From NCBI GenBank assembly GCA_025999215.1, contig AP024679.1, forward strand, positions 229,645 through 293,644: a stretch of 64,000 bases of DNA, given 5' to 3'. The stretch comes from Candidatus Dojkabacteria bacterium (lineage in GTDB: Bacteria; Patescibacteriota; Dojkabacteria; J137). The position numbers and the translations under genes were made by a program. The number at the start of each line of letters is the position of its first letter. Position 1 is the stretch's first letter. Below are positions 2,542 through 45,813 of this stretch, piece after piece. Under the pieces are notes generated by a model that was not told where the DNA came from, ran no database searches, and saw only the letters and a list, made by a program, of their open reading frames with translations.

Positions 2542-2802
2542 GTGATATCTATACTCTCAATATCAAAATTCTTTGTTTTTACAGATTTAATTAAATTTGT
2601 AGGCAGAAGACATCGCAAAATCGGTCTTGCTAATGCAATAATCAAAGCACTTGAAGCAAAAGTAGTAGAGAAGAACTACGAGAAAGTTTATATACACACC
2701 GATTTATCAAAGCCAGATGTTTTGAGGTTTTGGAAAAATAGAAGTTACTCCACTTTTGAAACGGAGAGATATGTGGTTCATATGATTAAAGATCTTGCAT
2801 AG
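2542..2802 (+). CDS. GNAT-family acetyltransferase, C-terminal fragment (possibly truncated or frameshifted)
   Basis: RRHRKIGLANAII resembles the GNAT motif A (R/Q-x-x-G-x-G/A). At 86 aa it is too short for a full GNAT domain. Upstream sequence in other frames could hold the N-terminal part. Confidence 0.35.
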   Translation: MISILSISKFFVFTDLIKFVGRRHRKIGLANAIIKALEAKVVEKNYEKVYIHTDLSKPDVLRFWKNRSYSTFETERYVVHMIKDLA

Positions 2803-3820
2803 AACAAAAATTTTCAATTGTTTTTTTAGTTTTTGGCCAAAAATTAGTAATGCCGGCGTTTCTGCCGTAAAGTTTGTATCCAGCATTTACTGGTCTCCCA
2901 CCAATTTTATTGCCTGGTTCAGGTACTATAAAGCGTGTATTTCCTTTTAAATAGCTCACTAGAGCTAACACTATTCCATGTAAAAGCTCGTGAAATGTTA
3001 CAACTTGCCTGGTTGTATGAACGTAGACCTCTTGATATAAAAATTCTTTAACATTTTCAATTGTATATGATATCGCTTGTATGTTTTTTGTGTTTTTTGA
3101 ATTAAAATTGTGATGTTTAAAAGTTTCAAATACTACTTTATCCAAATAACCTCTGTATGGCTCTATTAGATCATATACAAGTGAAGGGTATTCTGTAGGT
3201 GTATGAATGAAGCCATGATATGGGCTTAAATTATGGTAATGAATCCATCTTAATATTATGCTAGATACAAACTTTGATACAGCATCAAGCGTTGCTCCGA
3301 TTAAATTTTCGGAATCTTTTTTTCTTCTAGTAGTATTGTAAAAACCAAGTGTTTTGTAGTATTTTTCCCAGTAATTTTTGGAGTGCCACGCTTCAACATT
3401 TACAATATCTTTAATATCAGTTAATCCTTTAAGGCTATAGGCAGGTTCATTAATTAGCCACTTCATAGAATTAAATTTTGCTTTGATTAGTTTTCTTGCA
3501 ATGTATGCTTTCTTTTTTTTATTTATTCTAAAAGTGATTTGTTTAGTCAAGATATCTTCCTTTCCTGTGGTAACATTTGGTGTTATAACTACAGCTCTAT
3601 GCATGTTTCTTCTGTGAATTACGATTGATACTTTTCTTTTTACACAGTTTTCTAAAAACCCTTGTTCTAGTGGGCATACACTTCCATAAAACATTATAGA
3701 GTGAATGTTATCATAGTTAATTTTTAAATCTCCTCCTTTATAGTGAAAGTGTACAGAATTTTTATTTGTAGCAATTTTATTTGTGTAAGGTAGCCATAAA
3801 TAATCTTTATTTTTTTTCAT
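2786..3820 (-). CDS. cas1: CRISPR-associated endonuclease Cas1 (belongs to the type V-D-like locus)
   Basis: 344 aa with a Cas1-like layout: a basic helix ARKLIKAKF, then NLIGATLDAVSK, then HGFIHT...SLVYDLIEPYR, which resembles the conserved Cas1 GF(L)H...DLMEPFR catalytic region. It sits directly next to the CRISPR array. Confidence 0.85.
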   Translation of the reverse strand: MKKNKDYLWLPYTNKIATNKNSVHFHYKGGDLKINYDNIHSIMFYGSVCPLEQGFLENCVKRKVSIVIHRRNMHRAVVITPNVTTGKEDILTKQITFRINKKKKAYIARKLIKAKFNSMKWLINEPAYSLKGLTDIKDIVNVEAWHSKNYWEKYYKTLGFYNTTRRKKDSENLIGATLDAVSKFVSSIILRWIHYHNLSPYHGFIHTPTEYPSLVYDLIEPYRGYLDKVVFETFKHHNFNSKNTKNIQAISYTIENVKEFLYQEVYVHTTRQVVTFHELLHGIVLALVSYLKGNTRFIVPEPGNKIGGRPVNAGYKLYGRNAGITNFWPKTKKTIENFCSMQDL

Positions 3821-3922
3821 GTTTAGTTTAAAATATCTACAAATAATTCTTTAATTAAGTATAGATTTTGCATATATATTATTGCACTTTAACATTAAAC
3901 ACAAATTAATTTCGGATAAAGT

Positions 3923-4468
3923 CACCGAAATTATTGGTGATGAAGGCAGTAAAAAGTCTTTCAGTTCACCGAAATTATTGGTGATGAAGGCGGCGATAAA
4001 GTAAGGTGGACACCGAAATTATTGGTGATGAAGGCCCTGATACTTCATCTTTCGCACCGAAATTATTGGTGATGAAGGCAAAAGGGTGTTAGATTTGAAC
4101 ACCGAAATTATTGGTGATGAAGGCAAAGTTGTAAAACTCATTCACCGAAATTATTGGTGATGAAGGCGAAAAATTCATACATTAGCACCGAAATTATTGG
4201 TGATGAAGGCAATTCCCGTAATTGTGTTCACCGAAATTATTGGTGATGAAGGCATAAAGCTGTTGCCGTTACACCGAAATTATTGGTGATGAAGGCGTAA
4301 AAGAAGGTATTTTGCACCGAAATTATTGGTGATGAAGGCTTGTCTGTCTCCGAAAGCGCACCGAAATTATTGGTGATGAAGGCACGCCGAGATGTGATTT
4401 CACCGAAATTATTGGTGATGAAGGCAAGGGCTTTCTTCAACATCACCAAAATTAAAAGGGTTTCCGGT
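3923..4468. CRISPR. CRISPR array: 12 x 25-nt repeats CACCGAAATTATTGGTGATGAAGGC plus one degenerate terminal repeat (4444-4468); 12 spacers of 17-20 nt
   Basis: I located every repeat by hand. Repeat starts are 3923, 3967, 4011, 4055, 4100, 4143, 4186, 4229, 4272, 4315, 4359 and 4401. Spacer lengths are 19, 19, 19, 20, 18, 18, 18, 18, 18, 19, 17 and 18 nt. The terminal copy CACCAAAATTAAAAGGGTTTCCGGT is degenerate. The repeat can form a CACC/GGTG mini-hairpin. Confidence 0.92.
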
Positions 4469-4531
4469 ATGTTAGAGATAACATACATTAGCCTTACCCA
4501 TTTCGAAATTATTTGTGTTTTTTGTTAAAAT

Positions 4532-7500
4532 TTGTTAATGAAGAAAAAATATAAAAAACATAAGGGAATAACTGGATATACCCTTCACAATAAAAGACTT
4601 GTATACACTGGTAACCCAAGTATTCGATCAGTTAAATTACCTCTACTTTACAATGGTGATTCTCAGATTATTCAAAATTTCTATGAATCAATGATTCATG
4701 ATTACGAAAAGCTTAATGGCGCTATTAATATTTCAACTTTTATCAAAGATAAAAATATCTATAGCCTTATAGATTTTTGGTTAGATAGCCTGAGACTTGG
4801 AGTAATATTTGGAAGTTCTTTCAAAAGTTTACAAGGTACCATAAATGAAATTTTTGGTACACGCGGTCCTTATGATGAAATACTCAGTAAGATTCCTCAA
4901 GAATTTAGAAATGAAATAAACTTTGATATTTTTGTTAAAGAAATTTTGCAAAAACAAGGAATGAGAAGCACTTCAAGCAAGAACAGTTTTATAAAAAAAT
5001 TAAAAAGATCGTTTGGTATAGATGAAAATTCACCAGATGATCAAATCCCTACACAAAAAAAATTTGTGATGGATAAAATTAATAAAATTGCCGACAGAAT
5101 GTTCCCAGTTGATAACAATTATAAGGTAGTAGATATTCAAACTCAAAGATTAATATGGAAGGAAGAGTTAAATATAGAATTTTCTGATTCAGACAAATCT
5201 GACTATAAACCAACTTTTTACATCATTCCCAGTTTGGTTGATAAAAATACTAAAGATTTTTCTAAAATCTCGCCGATTGAGGTTTTAAATAAACTTAGAA
5301 ATTTTGTAAAAGAAACATGGAATTATTCCGAAAATGATGAAAAAGAAATAACTTCTCAAGTAAAAAGCCTTGCTGGATTGTCCGAAAACTTTAATGCATT
5401 TTCAAATTATTTCAACAATATTTTTAATTTGTTGTTTGATGGGAATATAGAAGCGGTAAAAGATAATTTAAATGCCGTTTTTGAACTTGAAAAAGCTTGG
5501 GGCGATAATATTGCTGATTTAGATGAAAGATTAAATTATTTGGCAAATCAGGCTCAAAAATTAGGAAAACCCAAAATGCAAAATAATTGGGATACATATA
5601 GATCAACTTTTGGAGGTAAACTTCAAAGCTGGTTTTCAAATCTTTTAAACCAAGAAAATGAAATTAGAAACCAGTTAGAAAAACATAAAAAAGAAATAGA
5701 AGTAGCTATAAAGTTTATAGAAAAGCATGATGAAAATTCTCCAATTCTTCAAGATTTGGATCAGTTAAAACGAATTGTTCAAGAAACTATAAACTCAGGA
5801 AATATATTCGAGGCAGAAACAAAAATTAACCTATACAGACAACTCCTTGCGAAGTTTCGCTCGGATTTTAATCAATTTTACCAACGGCACAACAAAGACG
5901 ATGATGACAATAAAGACTTAAAAATTAACAAGGCTTATCCTAATTTATTTAAAAATCTTAGAGTAACTCCAGAATTTTTTGGTGGCTCTAAATACAAAGA
6001 ATACTCAAAGTACGTAGATAAAACTTTTGATATCATCACACAAGGAATTAATATGGTATTGCAAATAGAAGAATCTTTGATTAATAAAATAGATAAAAAA
6101 AATCTCGAAATAGAAAAAGAATATTTTTGTAAACAATTACAATCTTTAAAAAATAAAATAACTACAGAATCTTTATTAGACAAAGATATCAGAATAGAAG
6201 TAGAATCAATTATCAAAAAATATTATGAGTCCAAAGATAAGTTGCCAGATAAATTTGAAGCTTTCTACATCAGTCCTTACTCCAGAGACAAAAGGCTTAA
6301 ATTGATACCGATTTCAGATGATTTGAATTTCGCTTCACAACTACTTGACATACATACCGGGTTAAACAAATTTGATGTTACTAAATTTGGTTTGGATTTT
6401 AAAAAATATTTATCTTACATTGAAATTTTAAAAATTAGATTTGGTTGGATTTTAAAAATGAGCCAAAATCCTACTATAGATGTTTCAGATCTTAAATATG
6501 ATTTATCGAACTTTGAAAATGCTCAAACTTATGTAGATTACTTCGGTAGCAAAATTGAAGATATTGGAAAATTTGTAAATAGCTTCATATTTAGCGAAAT
6601 AAAAGGTGCAATATCAAAAGCAACAAGAAAAGAATTTGTTGAAAGATATGTTATCCAATTTATGGACAGCGAACAAAGGGGCTTAAAATTAACTTATGTG
6701 CCTAAAATAATAAATTCAAAGCCTGTTTCACTACCTAAGACAGTAAGCTTACCTTCAAATGCTGATGAATTATTACAAGATCCCAAAAATGACAAATTGT
6801 TTTTTTATCCTCATAGATGGAAAGTTTTGTTTGACTTTGCATCAATTAAAACAGAATCAACAGAAAATAAACCTAATGCTTTGGTATTTACTTCAAAAAA
6901 CGATTTTAAAAATCCAAAAAAAGTCTATGTTGATGATGAAAATTCCTTTGATATTACTACATCAAAATACCAAATTCACTTTTTAGACAGGCTTCTTTAT
7001 CAAACAAAAAAATGGCGGCAAACTAAAGTGGAGTTTAGCTCGCCTTTTTTAATTTTGGAAGTTACAAGCAAAGTAACTTGGGATTCTCAAACAAAAAAAC
7101 CAATACTCAAACCCAAATCTAACTCAGCAAAACAAGGTGTTCGACTTTTTATAAATTACCCGATCAATTTAAAAACTTTACCAAAAAGCAAAGAAAACAA
7201 ACAAAGTAATATTTATTTGGGAATTGATACTGGAGAATACGGACTAGCTTGGGTAGCTGTTGATTTTTCAGAAAGATTAGCACCTAAAATTTTAGATAAA
7301 GGCTTTATTTATGACGATTCACTAAGAAAAATACAAGATAGAGTAGATGAGATTAAAGATGCTCAAGTTAAAGGAACATTTGGTATTCCTAGTACCAAAC
7401 TTGCCAGAATTAGACAACACACAATTACTACTTTGCGAAATAAAGTTCATGATTTACTATTAAAATACAATGCTAAAGTAATCTACGAGTACTCAATTTC

Positions 7501-8170
7501 CAATTTTGAAACAGGTAGCAATAGAGTTGCTAAAATTTATAGGAGTATTAAGGTCTCAGACGTTTATGCCGAAACAGAGGCTGACAAATTAGTTAAAAAA
7601 CTTGTTTGGGGTAATGCCAATTTGTTACTTGGTAATCATATTTCAGCTTATGCCACTAGCTACACTTGTAGCAAATGTAGAAGATCAATATATTTTGAAA
7701 AAGGTGATAAAAATATTGTAGAAGAAAAACAAGGTTCTTTGATTAAAGTAAAAATAAACGAAAATCTGTATGTTTGGGGATATTCAGCAGATAAAAATAT
7801 TCATAAAGGGAGTATTATAAACAGTAGAGAGCTAATTAATATTGTTAAAAAATATGCTAGACCACCACAAAACTCAGAAGCTTTAAAAAAATTTAATATA
7901 CAAGCCGAACAGTTTTATGAAAATAGAGGAGCCAGCGCAATATTCATTTGCCCTTATGATGACTGTAATCATTTATCGGATGCCGATATTCAGGCTGCGC
8001 TCAACATTGCTATAAAGGGTTATGTATCTGACCAAATAGGGAAGAAAAATACTGAAAAAGATGATGATAAAAAATTAAAGTTTTATTTAGAATATTTAGA
8101 TGAAATTAAAGAAAAACATCCGGTAATCTCATTAGAAGATGTAACAGAAAATCGGGGAGACAGGACTTGA
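4532..8170 (+). CDS. cas12d: Cas12-family type V effector, most consistent with Cas12d (CasY); 1212 aa (the ATG at 4538 is the likely true start)
   Basis: C-terminal third carries a split RuvC nuclease: RuvC-I LGIDTGEYGLAWVAV (D codon 7226-7228), RuvC-II KVIYEYSISNF (E codon 7487-7489), RuvC-III SDADIQAALNIAIKG (7979-8020). A roughly 150-aa insert lies between RuvC-II and RuvC-III and contains a CSKC (7667-7678) ... CPYDDC (7949-7966) zinc finger, which is the Cas12 Nuc/TNB arrangement. There is a large N-terminal region of about 880 aa with no recognisable motif. The neighbours are Cas1 and a short-spacer array, and there is no Cas2 or Cas4. Confidence 0.75.
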   Translation: MLMKKKYKKHKGITGYTLHNKRLVYTGNPSIRSVKLPLLYNGDSQIIQNFYESMIHDYEKLNGAINISTFIKDKNIYSLIDFWLDSLRLGVIFGSSFKSLQGTINEIFGTRGPYDEILSKIPQEFRNEINFDIFVKEILQKQGMRSTSSKNSFIKKLKRSFGIDENSPDDQIPTQKKFVMDKINKIADRMFPVDNNYKVVDIQTQRLIWKEELNIEFSDSDKSDYKPTFYIIPSLVDKNTKDFSKISPIEVLNKLRNFVKETWNYSENDEKEITSQVKSLAGLSENFNAFSNYFNNIFNLLFDGNIEAVKDNLNAVFELEKAWGDNIADLDERLNYLANQAQKLGKPKMQNNWDTYRSTFGGKLQSWFSNLLNQENEIRNQLEKHKKEIEVAIKFIEKHDENSPILQDLDQLKRIVQETINSGNIFEAETKINLYRQLLAKFRSDFNQFYQRHNKDDDDNKDLKINKAYPNLFKNLRVTPEFFGGSKYKEYSKYVDKTFDIITQGINMVLQIEESLINKIDKKNLEIEKEYFCKQLQSLKNKITTESLLDKDIRIEVESIIKKYYESKDKLPDKFEAFYISPYSRDKRLKLIPISDDLNFASQLLDIHTGLNKFDVTKFGLDFKKYLSYIEILKIRFGWILKMSQNPTIDVSDLKYDLSNFENAQTYVDYFGSKIEDIGKFVNSFIFSEIKGAISKATRKEFVERYVIQFMDSEQRGLKLTYVPKIINSKPVSLPKTVSLPSNADELLQDPKNDKLFFYPHRWKVLFDFASIKTESTENKPNALVFTSKNDFKNPKKVYVDDENSFDITTSKYQIHFLDRLLYQTKKWRQTKVEFSSPFLILEVTSKVTWDSQTKKPILKPKSNSAKQGVRLFINYPINLKTLPKSKENKQSNIYLGIDTGEYGLAWVAVDFSERLAPKILDKGFIYDDSLRKIQDRVDEIKDAQVKGTFGIPSTKLARIRQHTITTLRNKVHDLLLKYNAKVIYEYSISNFETGSNRVAKIYRSIKVSDVYAETEADKLVKKLVWGNANLLLGNHISAYATSYTCSKCRRSIYFEKGDKNIVEEKQGSLIKVKINENLYVWGYSADKNIHKGSIINSRELINIVKKYARPPQNSEALKKFNIQAEQFYENRGASAIFICPYDDCNHLSDADIQAALNIAIKGYVSDQIGKKNTEKDDDKKLKFYLEYLDEIKEKHPVISLEDVTENRGDRT

Positions 8171-8225
8171 ACCTGCAACCTCACGGTCCCAAACCGTGCG
8201 TTCTAGCCAATTGAACTACTCCCCG
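8152..8225 (-). tRNA. tRNA-Pro (anticodon UGG)
   Basis: The minus strand folds as a cloverleaf: acceptor CGGGGAG/CTCCCCG with the bacterial tRNA-Pro-specific C1:G72 pair and A73, D-stem GTTC/GAAC, anticodon stem CACGG/CCGTG, loop TTTGGGA (anticodon TGG), T-arm GCAGG-TTCAAGT-CCTGT. CCA is not encoded. The 3' part overlaps the last 19 nt of cas12d. Confidence 0.8.
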
Positions 8226-41104: not shown

Positions 41105-41273
41105 GTCTTTATTCCCTTCTAATTCCCGATAGTGTATAATAGCGATAGCGATGCCATTATACACAAAACAGTCTTTATTCCCTTCTAATTCCCGATAGTG
41201 TATAATAAACGGAAAAACTAGAAAACTTTACGTTCTGTCTTTATTCCCTTCTAATTCCCGATAGTGTATAATA
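41105..41273. CRISPR. CRISPR array: 3 x 37-nt repeats GTCTTTATTCCCTTCTAATTCCCGATAGTGTATAATA, 2 spacers of 29 nt
   Basis: Repeats at 41105-41141, 41171-41207 and 41237-41273. Spacers at 41142-41170 and 41208-41236. Each repeat ends in TGTATAAT. Confidence 0.85.
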
Positions 41274-41276
41274 ACC

Positions 41277-41390
41277 AAAGGGAATAAAGCCTAATGATAA
41301 AGCAAAATAGAGCTTTTGGCTAAGTAAAAAATTAGAACAAAGTTAGTTGATCGGCCGAGTTTTTGGTTTCTTTTTGAGCAGGTTTGCCAA
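41277..41390 (+). ncRNA. candidate tracrRNA (model A): the anti-repeat AAAGGGAATAAAGCC lies 4 nt after the last repeat; extent unknown
   Basis: 41277-41291 is the reverse complement of repeat positions 3-14, with 12 of 13 matching. The TATAAT of the last repeat (41267-41272) would place a transcription start at about 41279-41281. Confidence 0.3.
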
Positions 41391-41658
41391 GCAAAATGTA
41401 CATTTTTTCGTATTGTCTTTCGGTGATGATGAGCGCTCGGATTGCGCCTTTTTGAGGTACATTTTTTTGCAGTCTGTCTATGTGTTTTTTTGTGCCGTCC
41501 AATCCTTTACATATGCGTGAATATACAGAATACTGAAGCATAAAGTAACCGTCATTCAGTAAAAACTTTCGAAATTTTGTATATTTTTTCCGCAATCCCG
41601 GATTATTTACCGGTAAATCAAAAAATACAAGTATGCGCATATATTTTTGATTATTCAT
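41332..41658 (-). CDS. cas2: CRISPR-associated endoribonuclease Cas2
   Basis: MRILVFFDLP...LQYSVYSR matches the Cas2 signature. Confidence 0.85.
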   Translation of the reverse strand: MNNQKYMRILVFFDLPVNNPGLRKKYTKFRKFLLNDGYFMLQYSVYSRICKGLDGTKKHIDRLQKNVPQKGAIRALIITERQYEKMYILLGKPAQKETKNSADQLTLF

Positions 41659-42562
41659 AACAAATACGCTTTATCCTATTAAAACTTGGTAGTTCCAACA
41701 TTTTGGAATTTTTATTTTGAATACACGAAACTAGGCTTTTGACTACATGCTCGGTGGCAGTCATCAATTGCGTTTTTTGATTTTTAATAATTACTTCAAT
41801 TTCAAAAATTTGCATTAAATGAGCTTTAGTTTGTGGCGTTAGATTAGAATCTTCTTGTTTGAGGTTGAGAGTGCGTATCAAAAAATAATCGGCAATTGGT
41901 CTAAAAGGTTCAATTAAGTCATCAGCCAAATTAAAGTTGTTGTATTCGTTGCAGTGTTTGATGCCTATACTAGGAATAAAACCATAAGCGCTACAATGCC
42001 TTGCTAGATTGGATCTGATTAGGGCGTAGGTAAAATTAAGGGCAGAATTTATAAAAATATCTTTATCTCGTGTAAAATTTTTCCCAAAAATAGTAGTGAA
42101 ATATATGCCAGATGCTCTTCCTTCTATGTTTGATTTGTCTGATGATTTTACTTGTTTGCTTAGGGTCAATAGAGTGTTACTCTCTAGAGTAAAATTAAGC
42201 AATTTGAGCACTTTGGCTTGATTGCGAATTTTTTGAGAGACTATCTGTTGCCACAATTGATTTTTGAATGGTTGAGTTAGAGAAACTTGCTCCATTATTC
42301 TTTTGCTTTGTCGTGTATGGTTTTGATAAGGTAAAATTATAGCTTCGGGTAAGTGTTTGCCATTGCATACAATTGCGCATACTTTGTTTTGAGTAAGTGA
42401 AACTATCAGGTTAGAGGTTAGAAGTGATTGGCTATCTATCACTAAAGTGTCTATATCTTCTATTGGAATTTCAAATTTTTCTCCATCTTTTTCAATCACT
42501 ATTTGAGAATTTTTTTGGCTTAGTTTGGTGTTGCTTGAGATTAGAATATTTCTAAATCCCAT
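41651..42562 (-). CDS. cas1: CRISPR-associated Cas1 (type II)
   Basis: 303 aa with Cas1 motifs including YGFIPS...DLIEPFRP; it overlaps cas2. Confidence 0.85.
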   Translation of the reverse strand: MGFRNILISSNTKLSQKNSQIVIEKDGEKFEIPIEDIDTLVIDSQSLLTSNLIVSLTQNKVCAIVCNGKHLPEAIILPYQNHTRQSKRIMEQVSLTQPFKNQLWQQIVSQKIRNQAKVLKLLNFTLESNTLLTLSKQVKSSDKSNIEGRASGIYFTTIFGKNFTRDKDIFINSALNFTYALIRSNLARHCSAYGFIPSIGIKHCNEYNNFNLADDLIEPFRPIADYFLIRTLNLKQEDSNLTPQTKAHLMQIFEIEVIIKNQKTQLMTATEHVVKSLVSCIQNKNSKMLELPSFNRIKRICYE

Positions 42563-42567
42563 TGATT

Positions 42568-45500
42568 TTACTTTAATATAATTGGTTGCCTTGTTTCTTT
42601 ATGTACTTTGTATAGCCTTCCTAGTACATCTACTTGATATTTTTCAATCAAATATAAATTTTTGGATCCTTTCCTAATGTATCCTTTGGAGCCCACATTG
42701 TCGTGCTTTACAAAACTTATTCTTGCATTTGAGGAGTCTACACCAATGAAATATCCACTCAGGTAATAATCATCATCTTTCTTAACTTTTATTTTGATAA
42801 AATCATTTTTGTAAAGGCTAAATTGAAACTCATATGTATCATCAAGTTCTTGCCAGTCGCTCTTTGGAGTATTGATAGTAATGACCTTATTTGGGAGTTC
42901 TCCTGACATAATTTCTGGAAGATAAATTGGCACAAGATAGTATTTTCCATCTTTTTTGAAAACATCCGTTCTCACAATGCGAGAGTTAAGTACATATCCA
43001 TATCCATTTCCTCTTTTTAATTTAACGGTATTGTTTTCAACAGTTTCGCTAATGTACGAAAAAATAGGGCTTTTTTTGTTGGGATCTTTCCAGGTTAATG
43101 GTTCATCTGGTTCTAATTTTCGTTTTTCATTTATAGCTTTGTTTACTGCTTTGTAATATGCTGGATCAGTGTTTTTATAAATTTTTTCAAGAGAATTATT
43201 TAAATCTTTAGATTCTTTTGATAGGTCAATTTGCTTTCTAGTACCTAGTATACTTAAACCTTTCTCGGTTACTCCTCTTTGACTATAAACTGTTTCAAGG
43301 TGCGCTGCGCCTCTAATTTTTCTTTTTGGCTCACGAGATACAATCAAAGGTTTAATTTTGTTTTTAATATCTTTATACAGTTTAAGAAAATCATCAGATT
43401 TTTTATATTTCCAAAACTCTGAGTTTATTTCGCCATTTTGCTCTTTAGAATCCATCTTTTGCGGTTTTTGTGTACCAAAAACTCTTATCAACACATCGTT
43501 TCTAAAGTTAGGCCAAGGATTGGGGAAAGATTTTTTTCGTTTATAAAAATTTTCTTTGTCGTTTTTGTGCCATTCATTCATTTTTTGAATCATCCATGGA
43601 GTGGTAATGCCTACTAGTGTGGCATCAACTGCATGGTGCCTTGCATTTAAATCACGATTTTTTGGTAATCCATACATTTTGAGCAAGTAGTTAGTCATTG
43701 CACCGGTTATCACGTAGACTTTTCGTTTTTTTCCAGGCGTTTCTCTAAATTTTAAATTGTTTTCTACGTAATTTTTGATAGTTCTTGCCGCAAATTGAGT
43801 ATCATTTAAATTTCTATTCAAGAACTCTTCCGGAGGAACATCTTTTGGTAGAGTAGTGTTTAATATTTTATTTTTTTTGGATGTATTAATGTTAAGGCTA
43901 TTTACAAAATTTACAAAGTTTTGCCATTGTTCAGAATTTTCATCTCCTCCAAAATATTCAAAAGGGGTACTGTTTCCTTTTTTTCTATTTACACTGGTTA
44001 ATACCAAAATTTTATTGTTTCTTGAATCATCAAATGATCTGCTGTAAGGTAAAGCGTGATCAATTTCAACGTAGTTATCTTCAAAGAGTTTTTCTGCAGG
44101 AATTTCTTTACCAGACAATAAACATTTGCCTAGCTGTTCTTCTCGTAATTCGTATTTAAGTATATCGTGAGGAGTTACTTCTTTAGTTTTGAAATAGTCA
44201 AAGTTTTCTTCTAAAAATTTCTTTATTTTTTCTTTTCCTTTGGTTATTTCTTCTAAATTTTTTGTTATTTTTCTTTTTTCATCTTCACTTTTTGCCAAAT
44301 CTCTAGCAAGCTCAATATTAACAAAACTTGGGCTTCCATATTTATCTACTATGGCGTTAATAACTTTTCTTGTTTGCGATATTACTTTTTTGACTACAGG
44401 ATTGGTAACTGATGAACTCGTAAATGGCGGGAGTTTTGTAAAATTTCTTTTAAGTTTTAAGGTTTCATTAGGATACTTACTGCGCAAAATTTCTTCTGCA
44501 TGGGTGTAGTTTTCTCCTTCTTTTCGAATTATTTGAGCTAATTCTTTGTAAGCTTTGACTGAAAGATTTGCAAAGCCTGATAAGTTCGGTCCGTAATTTA
44601 CCAAAGTTTCAACTTCTTGAGGACTTAGTTGTGAAATTCCCTCAAAATAATCTTTCAAATCTTCATCAGTTTTTCTAACGGTTAAGCCATACACAATTTG
44701 TTCATAAAGATTAAAATCATTTGTGATTTTTTCCCAAAGATCACCATTTCTGTCTTTAATAGCTTTTCGAAGTTTGTGATATCCACTTAAAGGTTTTAAA
44801 CCTTTGATCTTTTCTTTTTCTTTGCTTGCATCAACATCTCTAAAAGAGTACTCTTCGGGAATTTCTGCCCACTTTCTAATGTGATAATAACTTATGTTTG
44901 AAGAGTGGGAAAATATATGATCATAAATCTTATCAAGTTCGCTTTGATTCAAAGGTCTTAACTCTCCTGTTTTTGTGTTAAAAACTTTAATGTTATTTTG
45001 CAGAAAGTTAAAAAATCTAAATATTTCAAAATTTATTGAGTGTACAGGTGCTCTGCTTTCATTTGGGAAAATACCACACTTTCCAACCATTTTTTCAATG
45101 TCATCTGTTTGTGCAAAAGGCCTTTGATAATTAAAAATCTCCAAAATTTTATTTTCAAAATCTTCAGTGATCTTTTTGTTTCCAAACTTTTTTTGTTTTT
45201 TTTAAATTTCTTTGAGTTCATCTTCAAGCATTTTTCGAGTTACCAGTCTTTTGTAGTTTCCTCTTCTATTTCTCTTTTGAAACTTAAACTCTTCATCTTT
45301 ATAAAACATTTCTCCAACTGTTCTGTAATTTTTTAAAAGTTCTTGGTTTTTTGATATATTCTCTGCTAGTTTTCCGCCTTCTTCTCCTTCTAATGCAATA
45401 TTTTTACGGTTTGATTTAAACCCTCTCCTTTTGACTATGTGTATCAAAACTCGAGCTAATTCTTCATCAGTTAAGCGCTCATCTAACGCCTTGCAACGAA

Positions 45501-45813
45501 GGAACCATGGATCATGTTTTTTGATATCAAAATTGTCAAATTCCGTGGGGAAACCAAAGCTATCTAGAGCTTTTTTAAGTTTTTTTATTCTGTATTTTCT
45601 TCTTCTTACTACTCGCCTTGATGATCGGGCTTCTCTTCTCACTTGATTTGGGTGTTTATCTCCTGCATTTACTCCAGCTTCAAAAACTCTTACTCCAGTA
45701 TCAATCAACCTCACTGGACGATAATATTCATTTTCTTTCTGTATTTCTATTACAGCCCAACCAATTGTCGCAGACCCTATATCAAGGCCAAGCGTATACT
45801 GTAAATCTTTCAT
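42568..45813 (-). CDS. cas9: Cas9 (type II-C-like, about 1078 aa), reading frame interrupted by one in-frame TAA at 45202-45204
   Basis: N-terminal fragment (45202..45813) has RuvC-I LGLDIGSATIGWAVIE and the Arg-rich bridge helix. C-terminal fragment (42568..45144) has the HNH motif (DHALPYSRSFDDSRNNKILV), RuvC-II (KVYVITGAMTNYL) and RuvC-III (HHAVDATLVG). Both fragments are in the same frame. Confidence 0.85.

What the first reader, a model, noticed from the sequence alone, without database searches (positions are those of the whole stretch)
3923..4468. Array architecture: 17-20 nt spacers, a repeat with a CACC/GGTG mini-hairpin, and a degenerate terminal repeat that defines polarity
All 12 spacers are 17-20 nt, which is far shorter than the 28-37 nt typical of most CRISPR types. 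The repeat can fold as CACC-gaaattatt-GGTG followed by ATGAAGGC. The copy at 4444-4468 (CACCAAAATTAAAAGGGTTTCCGGT) is degenerate, which in most arrays marks the leader-distal end. That would put the leader on the Cas1 side (around 3821-3922), with transcription in the + direction, the same as cas12d. Very short spacers mean short guide-target duplexes and a different targeting-specificity regime.
Basis: seen in the sequence. Interest (0 to 1): 0.55.

Follow-up and report, generated by a model that had tools for sequence, protein, structure and literature searches.

The report
Cas12d CRISPR array ending in scoutRNA
This is an ordinary type V-D (Cas12d/CasY) CRISPR array, whose very short spacers are already a published hallmark, and what looked like a decayed last repeat is mostly the start of the small helper RNA (scoutRNA) gene that Cas12d needs.

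Summary
There are 12 perfect 25-nt repeats (CACCGAAATTATTGGTGATGAAGGC, 3923-4425) and 12 spacers of 17-20 nt. The array lies between a divergent cas1 (2786-3820, -) and a gene that scores 1132 bits on the NCBIfam Cas12d/CasY model (4538-8170, +).

Short spacers (17-19 nt) are the published hallmark of type V-D. In 11 related loci, 96 of 98 distinct spacers were 17-21 nt.

It rests on better evidence than a degenerate repeat:
- the repeat is co-linear with the experimentally used KbCas12d crRNA;
- three variants of a homologous locus differ only at the cas1-proximal end of the array;
- leader blocks are conserved across loci.

The "degenerate terminal repeat" (4444-4468) is misread. Only 4444-4454 resembles the repeat. 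From 4454 to 4503 the sequence is a homolog of the published KbCas12d scoutRNA (AAAAGGGUUUCC, hairpin, AGCCUU, ACCC). Its GCCUU is complementary to the repeat's 3' AAGGC.

The CACC/GGTG hairpin is possible and always pairable in this subgroup, but its statistical support is weak.

This is a new, unannotated member of a known kind, and interest is low. The direct fusion of last repeat and scoutRNA, and a recently exchanged cas1-leader-repeat-scout cassette, are modest extras.

The parts
2786..3820 (-). cas1 of the type V-D locus (344 aa). It is the only adaptation gene next to the array, transcribed divergently from it.
   Evidence: Pfam Cas_Cas1 8e-26. NCBIfam TIGR00287 87 bits. There is no cas2 or cas4 among the neighbouring ORFs.
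3821..3922 (+). Leader. The last 52 nt (3871-3922) are identical in the sister locus L001. It contains conserved promoter-like blocks: TTGCAT 3868-3873, 16 nt, TAACAT 3890-3895. The junction motif CGGATAAAGT sits directly before repeat 1.
   Evidence: Alignment of leaders from 7 loci. Identity to L001. The promoter assignment is an inference: the consensus scan did not call it.
3923..4425 (+). CRISPR array: 12 perfect 25-nt repeats CACCGAAATTATTGGTGATGAAGGC with 11 internal spacers of 17-20 nt.
4426..4443 (+). Twelfth (oldest, trailer-end) spacer, 18 nt: AAGGGCTTTCTTCAACAT.
   Evidence: The trailer position is inferred from spacer turnover in L002/L003/L004.
4444..4454 (+). Remnant of a 13th repeat (CACCAAAATTA, 10/11 identical to repeat positions 1-11).
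   Evidence: The same layout occurs in CasY.1 (L013) and in L005-L007, where the last repeat runs directly into AAAGGGTTTCC.
4454..4503 (+). scoutRNA core. 5' arm AAAAGGGU 4454-4461; UUCC 4462-4465; hairpin GUAUGUUA-GAGA-UAACAUAC 4467-4486; GCCUU 4491-4495, complementary to the repeat's 3' AAGGC; 3' arm ACCCAUUU 4496-4503.
   Evidence: Homology to the published KbCas12d scoutRNA1-3. The motif GGGTTTCC-N-GCCTT occurs once in the window against 0.03 expected. Closing stem and hairpin covary across 10 loci. AGGC:GCCU pairing, 4 of the 5 complementary positions, is part of the best predicted repeat:scout duplex.
4504..4537 (+). scoutRNA 3' tail and cas12d upstream region. It holds a second repeat-like stretch (TTCGAAATTATTTGTG), a T6 run at 4518-4523, and a promoter-like TCGAAA-17-TGTTAAAAT ending at 4531.
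   Evidence: The function is inferred only.
4538..8170 (+). cas12d (CasY), 1210 aa.
   Evidence: NCBIfam NF033951 Cas12d/CasY equivalog, 1132 bits against a cut-off of 250. It is 100% identical to an NCBI 'hypothetical protein KatS3mg085_230' of a Candidatus Dojkabacteria MAG.

Best explanation
This is a type V-D CRISPR-Cas12d (CasY) locus of a CPR bacterium (Candidatus Dojkabacteria). The gene order is cas1 (-), leader, 12-repeat array (+), scoutRNA (+), cas12d (+).

Shown by sequence or homology:
- The array is read on the + strand.
- Each crRNA is a 25-nt repeat-derived 5' handle followed by a 17-20-nt spacer, as in the KbCas12d crRNA that works in vitro.
- New spacers enter at the cas1-proximal (leader) end.
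- The 13th, 'degenerate' repeat copy is an 11-nt repeat remnant fused directly to the scoutRNA gene.
- The scoutRNA has a closing stem (GGGU/ACCC plus A-U pairs), an invariant UUCC, an 8-bp hairpin and a single-stranded GCCUU.

Inferred from the published Cas12d mechanism:
- GCCUU pairs with the AAGGC at the 3' end of each repeat.
- Cas12d binds the crRNA:scoutRNA pair and cuts dsDNA next to a 5'-TA/TG PAM.

Inferred from the layout:
- Because the scoutRNA follows the last spacer on the same strand, with no room for a conserved promoter, it is probably made at least partly as the 3' end of the pre-crRNA transcript and released by processing.
- The short spacers are set by the V-D Cas1-only adaptation machinery. 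They are a family property, not a peculiarity of this array.
For: - Cas12d model, 1132 bits. Cas1.
- Twelve perfect repeats with 17-20-nt spacers.
- 96 of 98 distinct spacers in 11 V-D loci are 17-21 nt.
- The literature gives 17-19-nt spacers, a scoutRNA requirement and a TA/TG or TR PAM.
- The repeat is co-linear with the KbCas12d crRNA cuccgaaaguaucggggauaaaggc+spacer.
- Window 4454-4503 shares AAAAGGGUUUCC, UUAGCCUU and ACCC, in the same order and position, with the published KbCas12d scoutRNA. The original CasY.1 locus (L013) has the same array, last repeat, scout, cas12d layout.
- The motif is unique in the 64 kb window: 1 found, 0.03 expected.
- The closing stem takes seven different sequences across 10 loci and still pairs at 6-7 of 8 positions. 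The inner hairpins also differ and still fold.
- Polarity: L002 equals L003 plus one spacer at the cas1 end. L004 shares the 7 cas12d-proximal spacers and differs in the 10 cas1-proximal ones. Mutated repeats lie at the cas12d end.
- The leader is conserved.
- Window and L001 have identical repeats but no shared spacers, which indicates active turnover.
Against: - No expression data: strand, RNA ends and processing are all inferred.
- The consensus promoter scan found no + strand promoter in the leader or before the scoutRNA.
- The window's scoutRNA closing stem has an A-A mismatch, and RNAfold prefers pairing the 5' arm with the GCCUU segment.
- In five related loci the scoutRNA lies 20-330 nt beyond the last repeat. 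In the class B loci it has its own promoter-like elements. Co-transcription is therefore not a family requirement.
- The preprint 10.1101/2023.12.12.571249 says the scoutRNA is 'upstream of the CRISPR array'. This conflicts with what the CasY.1 contig shows.
- No protospacers with a PAM were found.
- The primary papers (Harrington 2020, Burstein 2017) could not be read.
Confidence: 0.85

Rival explanations
1. The copy at 4444-4468 is only a decayed, functionless terminal repeat, as in most CRISPR arrays. The scoutRNA is an independent gene that merely abuts it, with its own promoter overlapping the last spacer and repeat remnant.
For: - In L011, L016, L024, L032 and L002 a degenerate last repeat and the scoutRNA are separate, 20-330 nt apart.
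- The minimal active KbCas12d scoutRNA1 starts at AAAGGG and lacks the repeat remnant.
- A weak -10-like CAAAAT lies 6-7 nt before GGG in the window and in CasY.1 (sequence).
Against: - In the window, L001, CasY.1 and L005-L007 the repeat's own 3' AAAGG supplies the scoutRNA's 5' arm, so the two cannot be separated physically.
- The sequence where a -35 element would sit is a spacer that differs between the window and L001.
- No promoter was called there.
Confidence: 0.35
2. The array is read on the minus strand, with the leader on the cas12d side. The true repeat would then be GCCTTCATCACCAATAATTTCGGTG.
For: Two sigma-70-like matches lie on the minus strand inside the array, but they fall in spacers and repeats and number fewer than the shuffle expectation.
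Against: - The + strand repeat aligns with the crRNA that supports KbCas12d cleavage.
- Type V crRNAs carry the repeat-derived handle 5' of the spacer (established knowledge).
- Spacer turnover is at the cas1 end in L002-L004.
- Leader conservation is on the cas1 side.
- The complementary GCCUU lies on the + strand.
Confidence: 0.03
3. The CACC/GGTG hairpin is not formed in the working complex. Instead the repeat's middle pairs with the scoutRNA, tracrRNA-like, as was found for Cas12c2.
For: - Class B Cas12d repeats lack the hairpin, and their scoutRNAs carry a 10-11-nt anti-repeat to exactly that segment.
- In the window, the best predicted duplex extends beyond AGGC:GCCU to GGUG:UACC and CGAAAU:AUUUCG.
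- Cas12c2 showed more crRNA:tracrRNA pairing than had been predicted (PMC9522604).
Against: - The hairpin is pairable in all 7 class A repeats, with A-U, U-G and C-G at pair 2:16.
- The scoutRNA 3' arm covaries with its own 5' arm, not with the repeat.
- The tail is dispensable for KbCas12d in vitro.
Confidence: 0.3

Closest known systems
Type V-D CRISPR-Cas12d (CasY), prototype CasY.1/KbCas12d from Katanobacteria (Burstein 2017; Harrington 2020; 10.1101/2023.12.12.571249)
   Same: - Effector family.
- cas1 as the only adaptation gene.
- 25-nt repeat of the form C.CCGAAA...GG.GAT.AAGGC.
- 17-20-nt spacers.
- scoutRNA with AAAGGGUUUCC...AGCCUU...ACCC, lying between the last repeat and cas12d on the same strand.
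- CPR host.
   Different: - The Cas12d protein is only about 35% identical to the CasY.1-like proteins.
- The repeat hairpin uses an A-U pair where CasY.1 has U-G.
- The scoutRNA inner hairpin is longer (8 bp with a GAGA loop).
- The closing stem has one mismatch.
- The last repeat has lost about 6-7 nt.
Type V-C Cas12c with its scoutRNA/tracrRNA (Harrington 2020; Kurihara 2022, PMC9522604)
   Same: - Short spacers.
- A helper RNA with a short segment complementary to the repeat's 3' end.
- Related RuvC region (49.6 bits to the Cas12c model; weak hit to 7v93).
   Different: - The effector fails the Cas12c model cut-off (49.6 against 250 bits).
- The scoutRNA sequence and fold differ.
- For Cas12c, processing of the pre-crRNA by the effector has been shown. 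For Cas12d it is unconfirmed.
tracrRNA genes adjacent to type II arrays
   Same: A helper RNA gene next to the array that pairs with the repeat. The same window holds a type II locus with an anti-repeat right after its mini-array.
   Different: - The scoutRNA pairs through about 5 nt rather than a long anti-repeat.
- It is co-oriented with the array and fused to the last repeat.
- No RNase III-type long duplex is predicted.

Membership tests
Type V-D CRISPR-Cas (Cas12d/CasY) | The effector matches the Cas12d family model over its full length. | tested here: met
   NCBIfam NF033951.2, 1132 bits (cut-off 250), residues 10-1164 against profile positions 1-1180.
Type V-D CRISPR-Cas (Cas12d/CasY) | cas1 is next to the array, with no cas2 or cas4 in the locus. 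| tested here: met
   Cas1 at 2786-3820. The neighbouring ORFs have no Cas2/Cas4 hits. A Cas2 exists only in the separate type II locus about 37 kb away.
Type V-D CRISPR-Cas (Cas12d/CasY) | Repeats of about 25-26 nt and spacers of 17-19 nt. | tested here: met
   25-nt repeat. Spacers are 17-20 nt, mostly 18-19.
Type V-D CRISPR-Cas (Cas12d/CasY) | 5'-TA/TG (TR) PAM beside protospacers. | tested here: inconclusive
   Seven spacers were scanned in IMG/VR. Four had no hit. Three had 2-7 exact hits, which I judge to be roughly chance level for an 18-mer (database size estimated, not measured). TG preceded the match in 2 of 3 independent contig families for one spacer only.
Cas12d scoutRNA | Sequence homology to an experimentally validated scoutRNA, in the same position and on the same strand. 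| tested here: met
   AAAAGGGUUUCC, UUAGCCUU and ACCC are shared with KbCas12d scoutRNA1-3. The alignment with the CasY.1 contig L013 is. The motif is unique in the window.
Cas12d scoutRNA | A short (about 5-nt) segment complementary to the 3' end of the repeat. | tested here: met
   GCCUU at 4491-4495 is complementary to the repeat's AAGGC. AGGC:GCCU pairing (4 of these 5 positions) is part of the best predicted duplex in the window; the anchor pairing is also in the best duplex for CasY.1 and L016.
Cas12d scoutRNA | Conserved fold: a closing stem enclosing UUCC, a hairpin and the GCCUU segment. | tested here: met
   Ten loci with seven different closing-stem sequences pair at 6-7 of 8 positions, and the hairpins differ and still fold. 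The window's stem has one A-A mismatch. The alignment was made by hand, and no covariance model could be built because MAFFT misaligned the arms.
Cas12d scoutRNA | The RNA is expressed and is required for Cas12d activity. | not testable with these tools
   Needs RNA-seq or a Northern blot, plus cleavage assays.
Type V-C (Cas12c) | The effector matches the Cas12c model above its cut-off. | tested here: not met
   49.6 bits against a cut-off of 250.
Ordinary degenerate terminal CRISPR repeat | The last copy aligns with the repeat over its whole length, with scattered substitutions. | tested here: not met
   Only positions 1-11 align (10/11). Ungapped identity is 14 of 25, and the remainder is scoutRNA sequence.

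The most novel reading that the evidence does not exclude
In this Cas12d subgroup (the window, L001, CasY.1 and L005-L007) the scoutRNA is not a separate gene. It is the modified last repeat-spacer unit of the array: its 5' arm is the last repeat's own AAAGG, and its 3' tail is again repeat-like.

On this reading it would be made as the 3' end of the pre-crRNA and released by the same processing that frees the last crRNA. Guide and helper RNA production would then be coupled, which would show how a scoutRNA can evolve from array sequence.

The module cas1-leader-repeats-scout moves as one cassette. It is 90-98% nt identical between two genomes whose Cas12d proteins are 57% identical.
Probability: 0.3. 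Interest if true: 0.45.

Novelty: new member of a known kind. Interest (0 to 1): 0.25.

Why it matters
The finding adds little to what is known, because short spacers and a scoutRNA are established for Cas12d.

Practical value:
- The locus is annotated only as 'hypothetical protein' in a public Dojkabacteria MAG. It can now be labelled as a complete V-D system with defined crRNA and scoutRNA sequences, ready for testing.
- A 'degenerate last repeat' next to cas12d should be read as the scoutRNA start. This matters for array-orientation tools that rely on repeat decay.
- 18-nt spacers gave 0-7 exact hits in IMG/VR, which I judge to be about chance level. Target assignment for V-D spacers therefore needs PAM or multi-spacer support.

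The repeat-scout fusion and the cassette exchange are small leads on how helper RNAs arise and how CRISPR modules recombine.

Tried and rejected
- **Single-protein scan of genome contigs:** no relatives found. The scans with a protein alignment worked.
- **Rfam:** nothing but two tRNAs at gathering threshold. In 3700-4700 there were only sub-threshold snoRNA and miRNA noise hits. No scoutRNA or CRISPR-DR family matched.
- **Covariance model of the scoutRNA:** MAFFT misaligned the stem arms and the long-hairpin members. I used a hand-segmented alignment with pairing counts and RNAfold instead, plus a motif scan with a shuffle control. The strict perfect-stem motif missed the window and L001 because of one A-A mismatch.
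- **Spacer targets:** there were no self-targets in the window at up to 2 mismatches. Seven IMG/VR scans gave nothing convincing.
- **Promoter and terminator scan:** it gave no + strand leader promoter and no terminator after the scoutRNA.
- **Primary papers:** Harrington 2020 and Burstein 2017 are not held. Their content is cited second-hand from papers that were read.
- **PDB:** no Cas12d structure. The best hit is Cas12c2 at E = 0.0036.
- **Rejected readings:** re-phasing of the repeat boundary (flanking bases are not conserved) and minus-strand transcription.

Full report
**1. The observation**

Reading 3600-4800 and the repeat finders show 12 identical copies of CACCGAAATTATTGGTGATGAAGGC from 3923 to 4425, with start-to-start spacing of 42-45 nt. 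The base before and the base after the 25-mer vary from unit to unit, so the repeat is 25 nt. The spacers are 19, 19, 19, 20, 18, 18, 18, 18, 18, 19 and 17 nt, plus an 18-nt spacer (4426-4443) before the copy at 4444-4468. The 13th copy matches the repeat at only 14 of 25 ungapped positions, and only CACCAAAATTA (4444-4454) is clearly repeat-like.

**2. Context**

The ORF at 2786-3820 on the minus strand is a Cas1 (Pfam 8e-26; TIGR00287). The ORF at 4538-8170 on the plus strand scores 1132 bits on the NCBIfam Cas12d/CasY equivalog model over its full length. It scores only 49.6 bits on the Cas12c model. No cas2 or cas4 lies in the locus. The Cas12d protein is identical to an NCBI entry named 'hypothetical protein KatS3mg085_230 [Candidatus Dojkabacteria bacterium]' on an 862-kb contig. 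This is a type V-D locus in a CPR bacterium.

**3. Short spacers are the known hallmark of this type**

[quoted passage not shown] A 2018 review says the same of CasY (PMC6546366). I fetched 34 related loci. In the 11 loci analysed for spacer length, 96 of 98 distinct spacers are 17-21 nt: 39 are 18 nt and 49 are 19 nt. The two exceptions come from one repeat with an internal deletion.

The same window also holds a type II locus whose mini-array has 29-nt spacers. Spacer length therefore follows the CRISPR type, not the host.

**4. What the 'degenerate terminal repeat' is**

The supplementary table of the preprint gives the KbCas12d RNAs:
- crRNA: cuccgaaaguaucggggauaaaggc plus an 18-nt spacer.
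- scoutRNA1: aaaggguuuccaguuuuuaacuaaacuuuagccuuccacccuuu.
- A longer form starting aaguaucaaaauaaaaaggg.

Window 4444-4503 reads CACCAAAAUUAAAAGGGUUUCCGGUAUGUUAGAGAUAACAUACAUUAGCCUUACCCAUUU. It shares AAAAGGGUUUCC, UUAGCCUU and ACCC with the Kb scoutRNA, in the same order.

One fetched locus (L013) is the CasY.1 contig itself. There the array's last repeat reads CTCCGAAAGTATCaaaaATAAAaAGG and continues directly into GTTTCCAG...AGCCTTCCACCCTTT, 30 nt before the cas12d start. In L005-L007 an almost intact last repeat does the same...GGGGATAAAGG|GTTTCCAGTCGAAAGACTTTTGCCTTCTACCCTTTT. The four-way alignment keeps AAAGGGTTTCC and GCCTT invariant. The motif GGGTTTCC-N15-40-GCCTT occurs once in the 64-kb window against 0.03 expected.

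From 4454 onward it is the scoutRNA gene, on the same strand as the crRNAs and cas12d. The preprint's sentence that the scoutRNA lies 'upstream of the CRISPR array' does not fit the CasY.1 contig, where it lies after the last repeat.

**5. scoutRNA fold**

I segmented ten scoutRNAs by hand into 5' arm, U/CUCC, hairpin, linker, GCCUU and 3' arm.
- Closing stems: the sequences are GGGU/ACCC (plus A-U pairs), UGGCAU/AUGCCA, UGGCUU/AAGCCA, AUGGUU/AACCAU, AAGGGAG/CUUCCUU, GGUGC/GCACC and ACCCAGU/ACUGGGU. All pair at 6-7 of 8 positions.
- Inner hairpins: they differ in sequence and all fold.
- Window versus L016: the hairpins GUAUGUUA-GAGA-UAACAUAC and GUUUGUUA-GAGA-UAACAAAC differ by one compensatory pair.
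- Weak point: the window's closing stem has one A-A mismatch. RNAfold alone prefers pairing the repeat-derived 5' arm with the GCCUU segment, which is unsurprising because GCCUU is complementary to repeat 3' ends.
- Repeat-to-scout pairing: duplex prediction puts AGGC:GCCU, 4 of the 5 complementary positions, in the best window repeat:scout interaction, and the corresponding anchor pairing in the best duplex for CasY.1 and L016.

A second group of Cas12d loci (class B: L009, L010, L014-L021, L023, L026-L030, L033-L035) has the array elsewhere. Its scoutRNA is longer, sits just upstream of cas12d, has its own TTGACA/TAAAT-like elements and carries a 10-11-nt anti-repeat, but keeps the same UUUCC-hairpin-UGCCUU core.

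**6. Polarity**

Three lines support + strand transcription with the leader at the cas1 side.
- **Co-linearity.** The repeat is co-linear with the crRNA that supports KbCas12d cleavage.
- **Spacer turnover.** L002, L003 and L004 encode the same Cas12d, with the same gene order as the window. L002 equals L003 plus one spacer at the cas1 end. L004 shares the seven cas12d-proximal spacers and has ten different cas1-proximal ones. The mutated repeats sit at the cas12d end.
- **Leader conservation.** The leaders of seven loci share blocks. In the window these are TTGCAT 3868-3873, TAACAT 3890-3895 and CGGATAAAGT directly before repeat 1. The last 52 nt are identical between the window and L001.

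The consensus scan did not call a promoter there, so the promoter assignment is an inference.

**7. The repeat hairpin**

CACC/GGTG can form: -6.0 kcal/mol, with 3.5% of shuffles folding as well. In seven class A repeats all four pairs are always pairable, and pair 2:16 is A-U (window), U-G or C-G. With one varying pair the control is weak, since 81 of 500 shuffles do as well.

Class B repeats lack the hairpin, and that segment pairs with the scoutRNA anti-repeat instead. No Cas12d structure is in the PDB copy. Whether the hairpin exists in the working complex is open.

**8. How it most likely works**

See the best explanation.
- Shown: the family assignment, the architecture, the homology of both RNAs and the acquisition polarity in a homologous locus.
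- Inferred: expression, AAGGC:GCCUU pairing in vivo, the PAM, and production of the scoutRNA from the pre-crRNA 3' end.

The co-transcription idea rests on layout. The scoutRNA starts inside the last repeat. The sequence where a -35 element would sit is a spacer that differs between the window and L001. No promoter was called there. Against it, other loci have detached scoutRNAs, one of them behind a small ORF.

**9. Targets**

There are no self-matches at up to 2 mismatches in the window. Of seven spacers scanned in IMG/VR, four have no exact match. Three have 2, 5 and 7 matches.

I judge this to be roughly the number expected by chance for an 18-mer in a collection of that size. That estimate is mine, and the database size was not measured. 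No contig carries a second spacer match. The 5' flank is TG in 2 of 3 independent contig families for one spacer only. The result is inconclusive.

**10. Verdict**

The one substantive correction is that the 'degenerate repeat' is the scoutRNA start. Novelty: a new, so far unannotated member of a known kind. Interest is low (0.25). A modest lead remains in the repeat-scoutRNA fusion and the cassette exchange noted below.

Noticed in passing
window 2790-4600 versus L001 2046-4065: The block cas1 + leader + repeats + scoutRNA + the first ~60 nt of cas12d is 89-98% nt identical to a syntenic Dojkabacteria contig (Cas1 95% aa). The rest of cas12d is 55-70% nt identical (57% aa). The flanking housekeeping genes are 61-74% aa identical (FemAB 64%, Mur ligase 67%). 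The boundaries are sharp, which suggests recent exchange of the adaptation and RNA cassette. No spacers are shared.
   Followed up: partly
window 41105-45813: A second CRISPR-Cas locus, type II. Cas9 is split into two ORFs (45202-45813 and 42568-45144, minus strand) at an A8/A7 homopolymer, so either a frameshift or an assembly error. It also has type II Cas1 (41651-42562) and Cas2 (41332-41658). A mini-array of three 37-nt repeats (GTCTTTATTCCCTTCTAATTCCCGATAGTGTATAATA) at 41105-41273 has 29-nt spacers. It is followed by AAGGGAATAAAG (41278-41289), complementary to the repeat's 5' end, which is a likely tracrRNA anti-repeat.
   Followed up: partly
window 4504-4519; L005 3978-3995; L013 168-185: The stretch just 3' of the scoutRNA core again resembles the 5' half of the repeat (window TTCGAAATTATTTGTG against repeat ACCGAAATTATTGGTG). 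The scoutRNA core therefore sits between two repeat-like pieces, as if it replaced a spacer. In the window, AUUUCG in this tail could also pair with the repeat's CGAAAU.
   Followed up: partly
L008 156-215 and L024 2160-2215: In this Cas12d locus the last full repeat is followed by TATAAT, a T-run and AGCCTTTATCCCC. That last stretch is a perfect 13-nt complement of the repeat's 3' end. It lies upstream of the scoutRNA core, so it is a tracrRNA-like long anti-repeat or a trailer hairpin.
   Followed up: no
window 8152-8225 (-) versus cas12d end 8170: A tRNA-Pro(TGG) gene on the minus strand overlaps the last 19 nt of the cas12d ORF. The Cas12d family model ends at residue 1164, about 45 residues before the stop.
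   Followed up: no
window 4503-4540: A promoter-like TCGAAA-17-TGTTAAAAT ends at 4531, only 6 nt before the cas12d ATG (4538), and no Shine-Dalgarno sequence is visible. The cas12d mRNA may be leaderless or read through from the array. In L001 the start codon is GTG.
   Followed up: no
L002 3530-3830: In the L002/L003/L004/L022 locus about 330 nt holding a small ORF are inserted between the degenerate last repeat and the scoutRNA. The scoutRNA can therefore be detached from the array.
   Followed up: no
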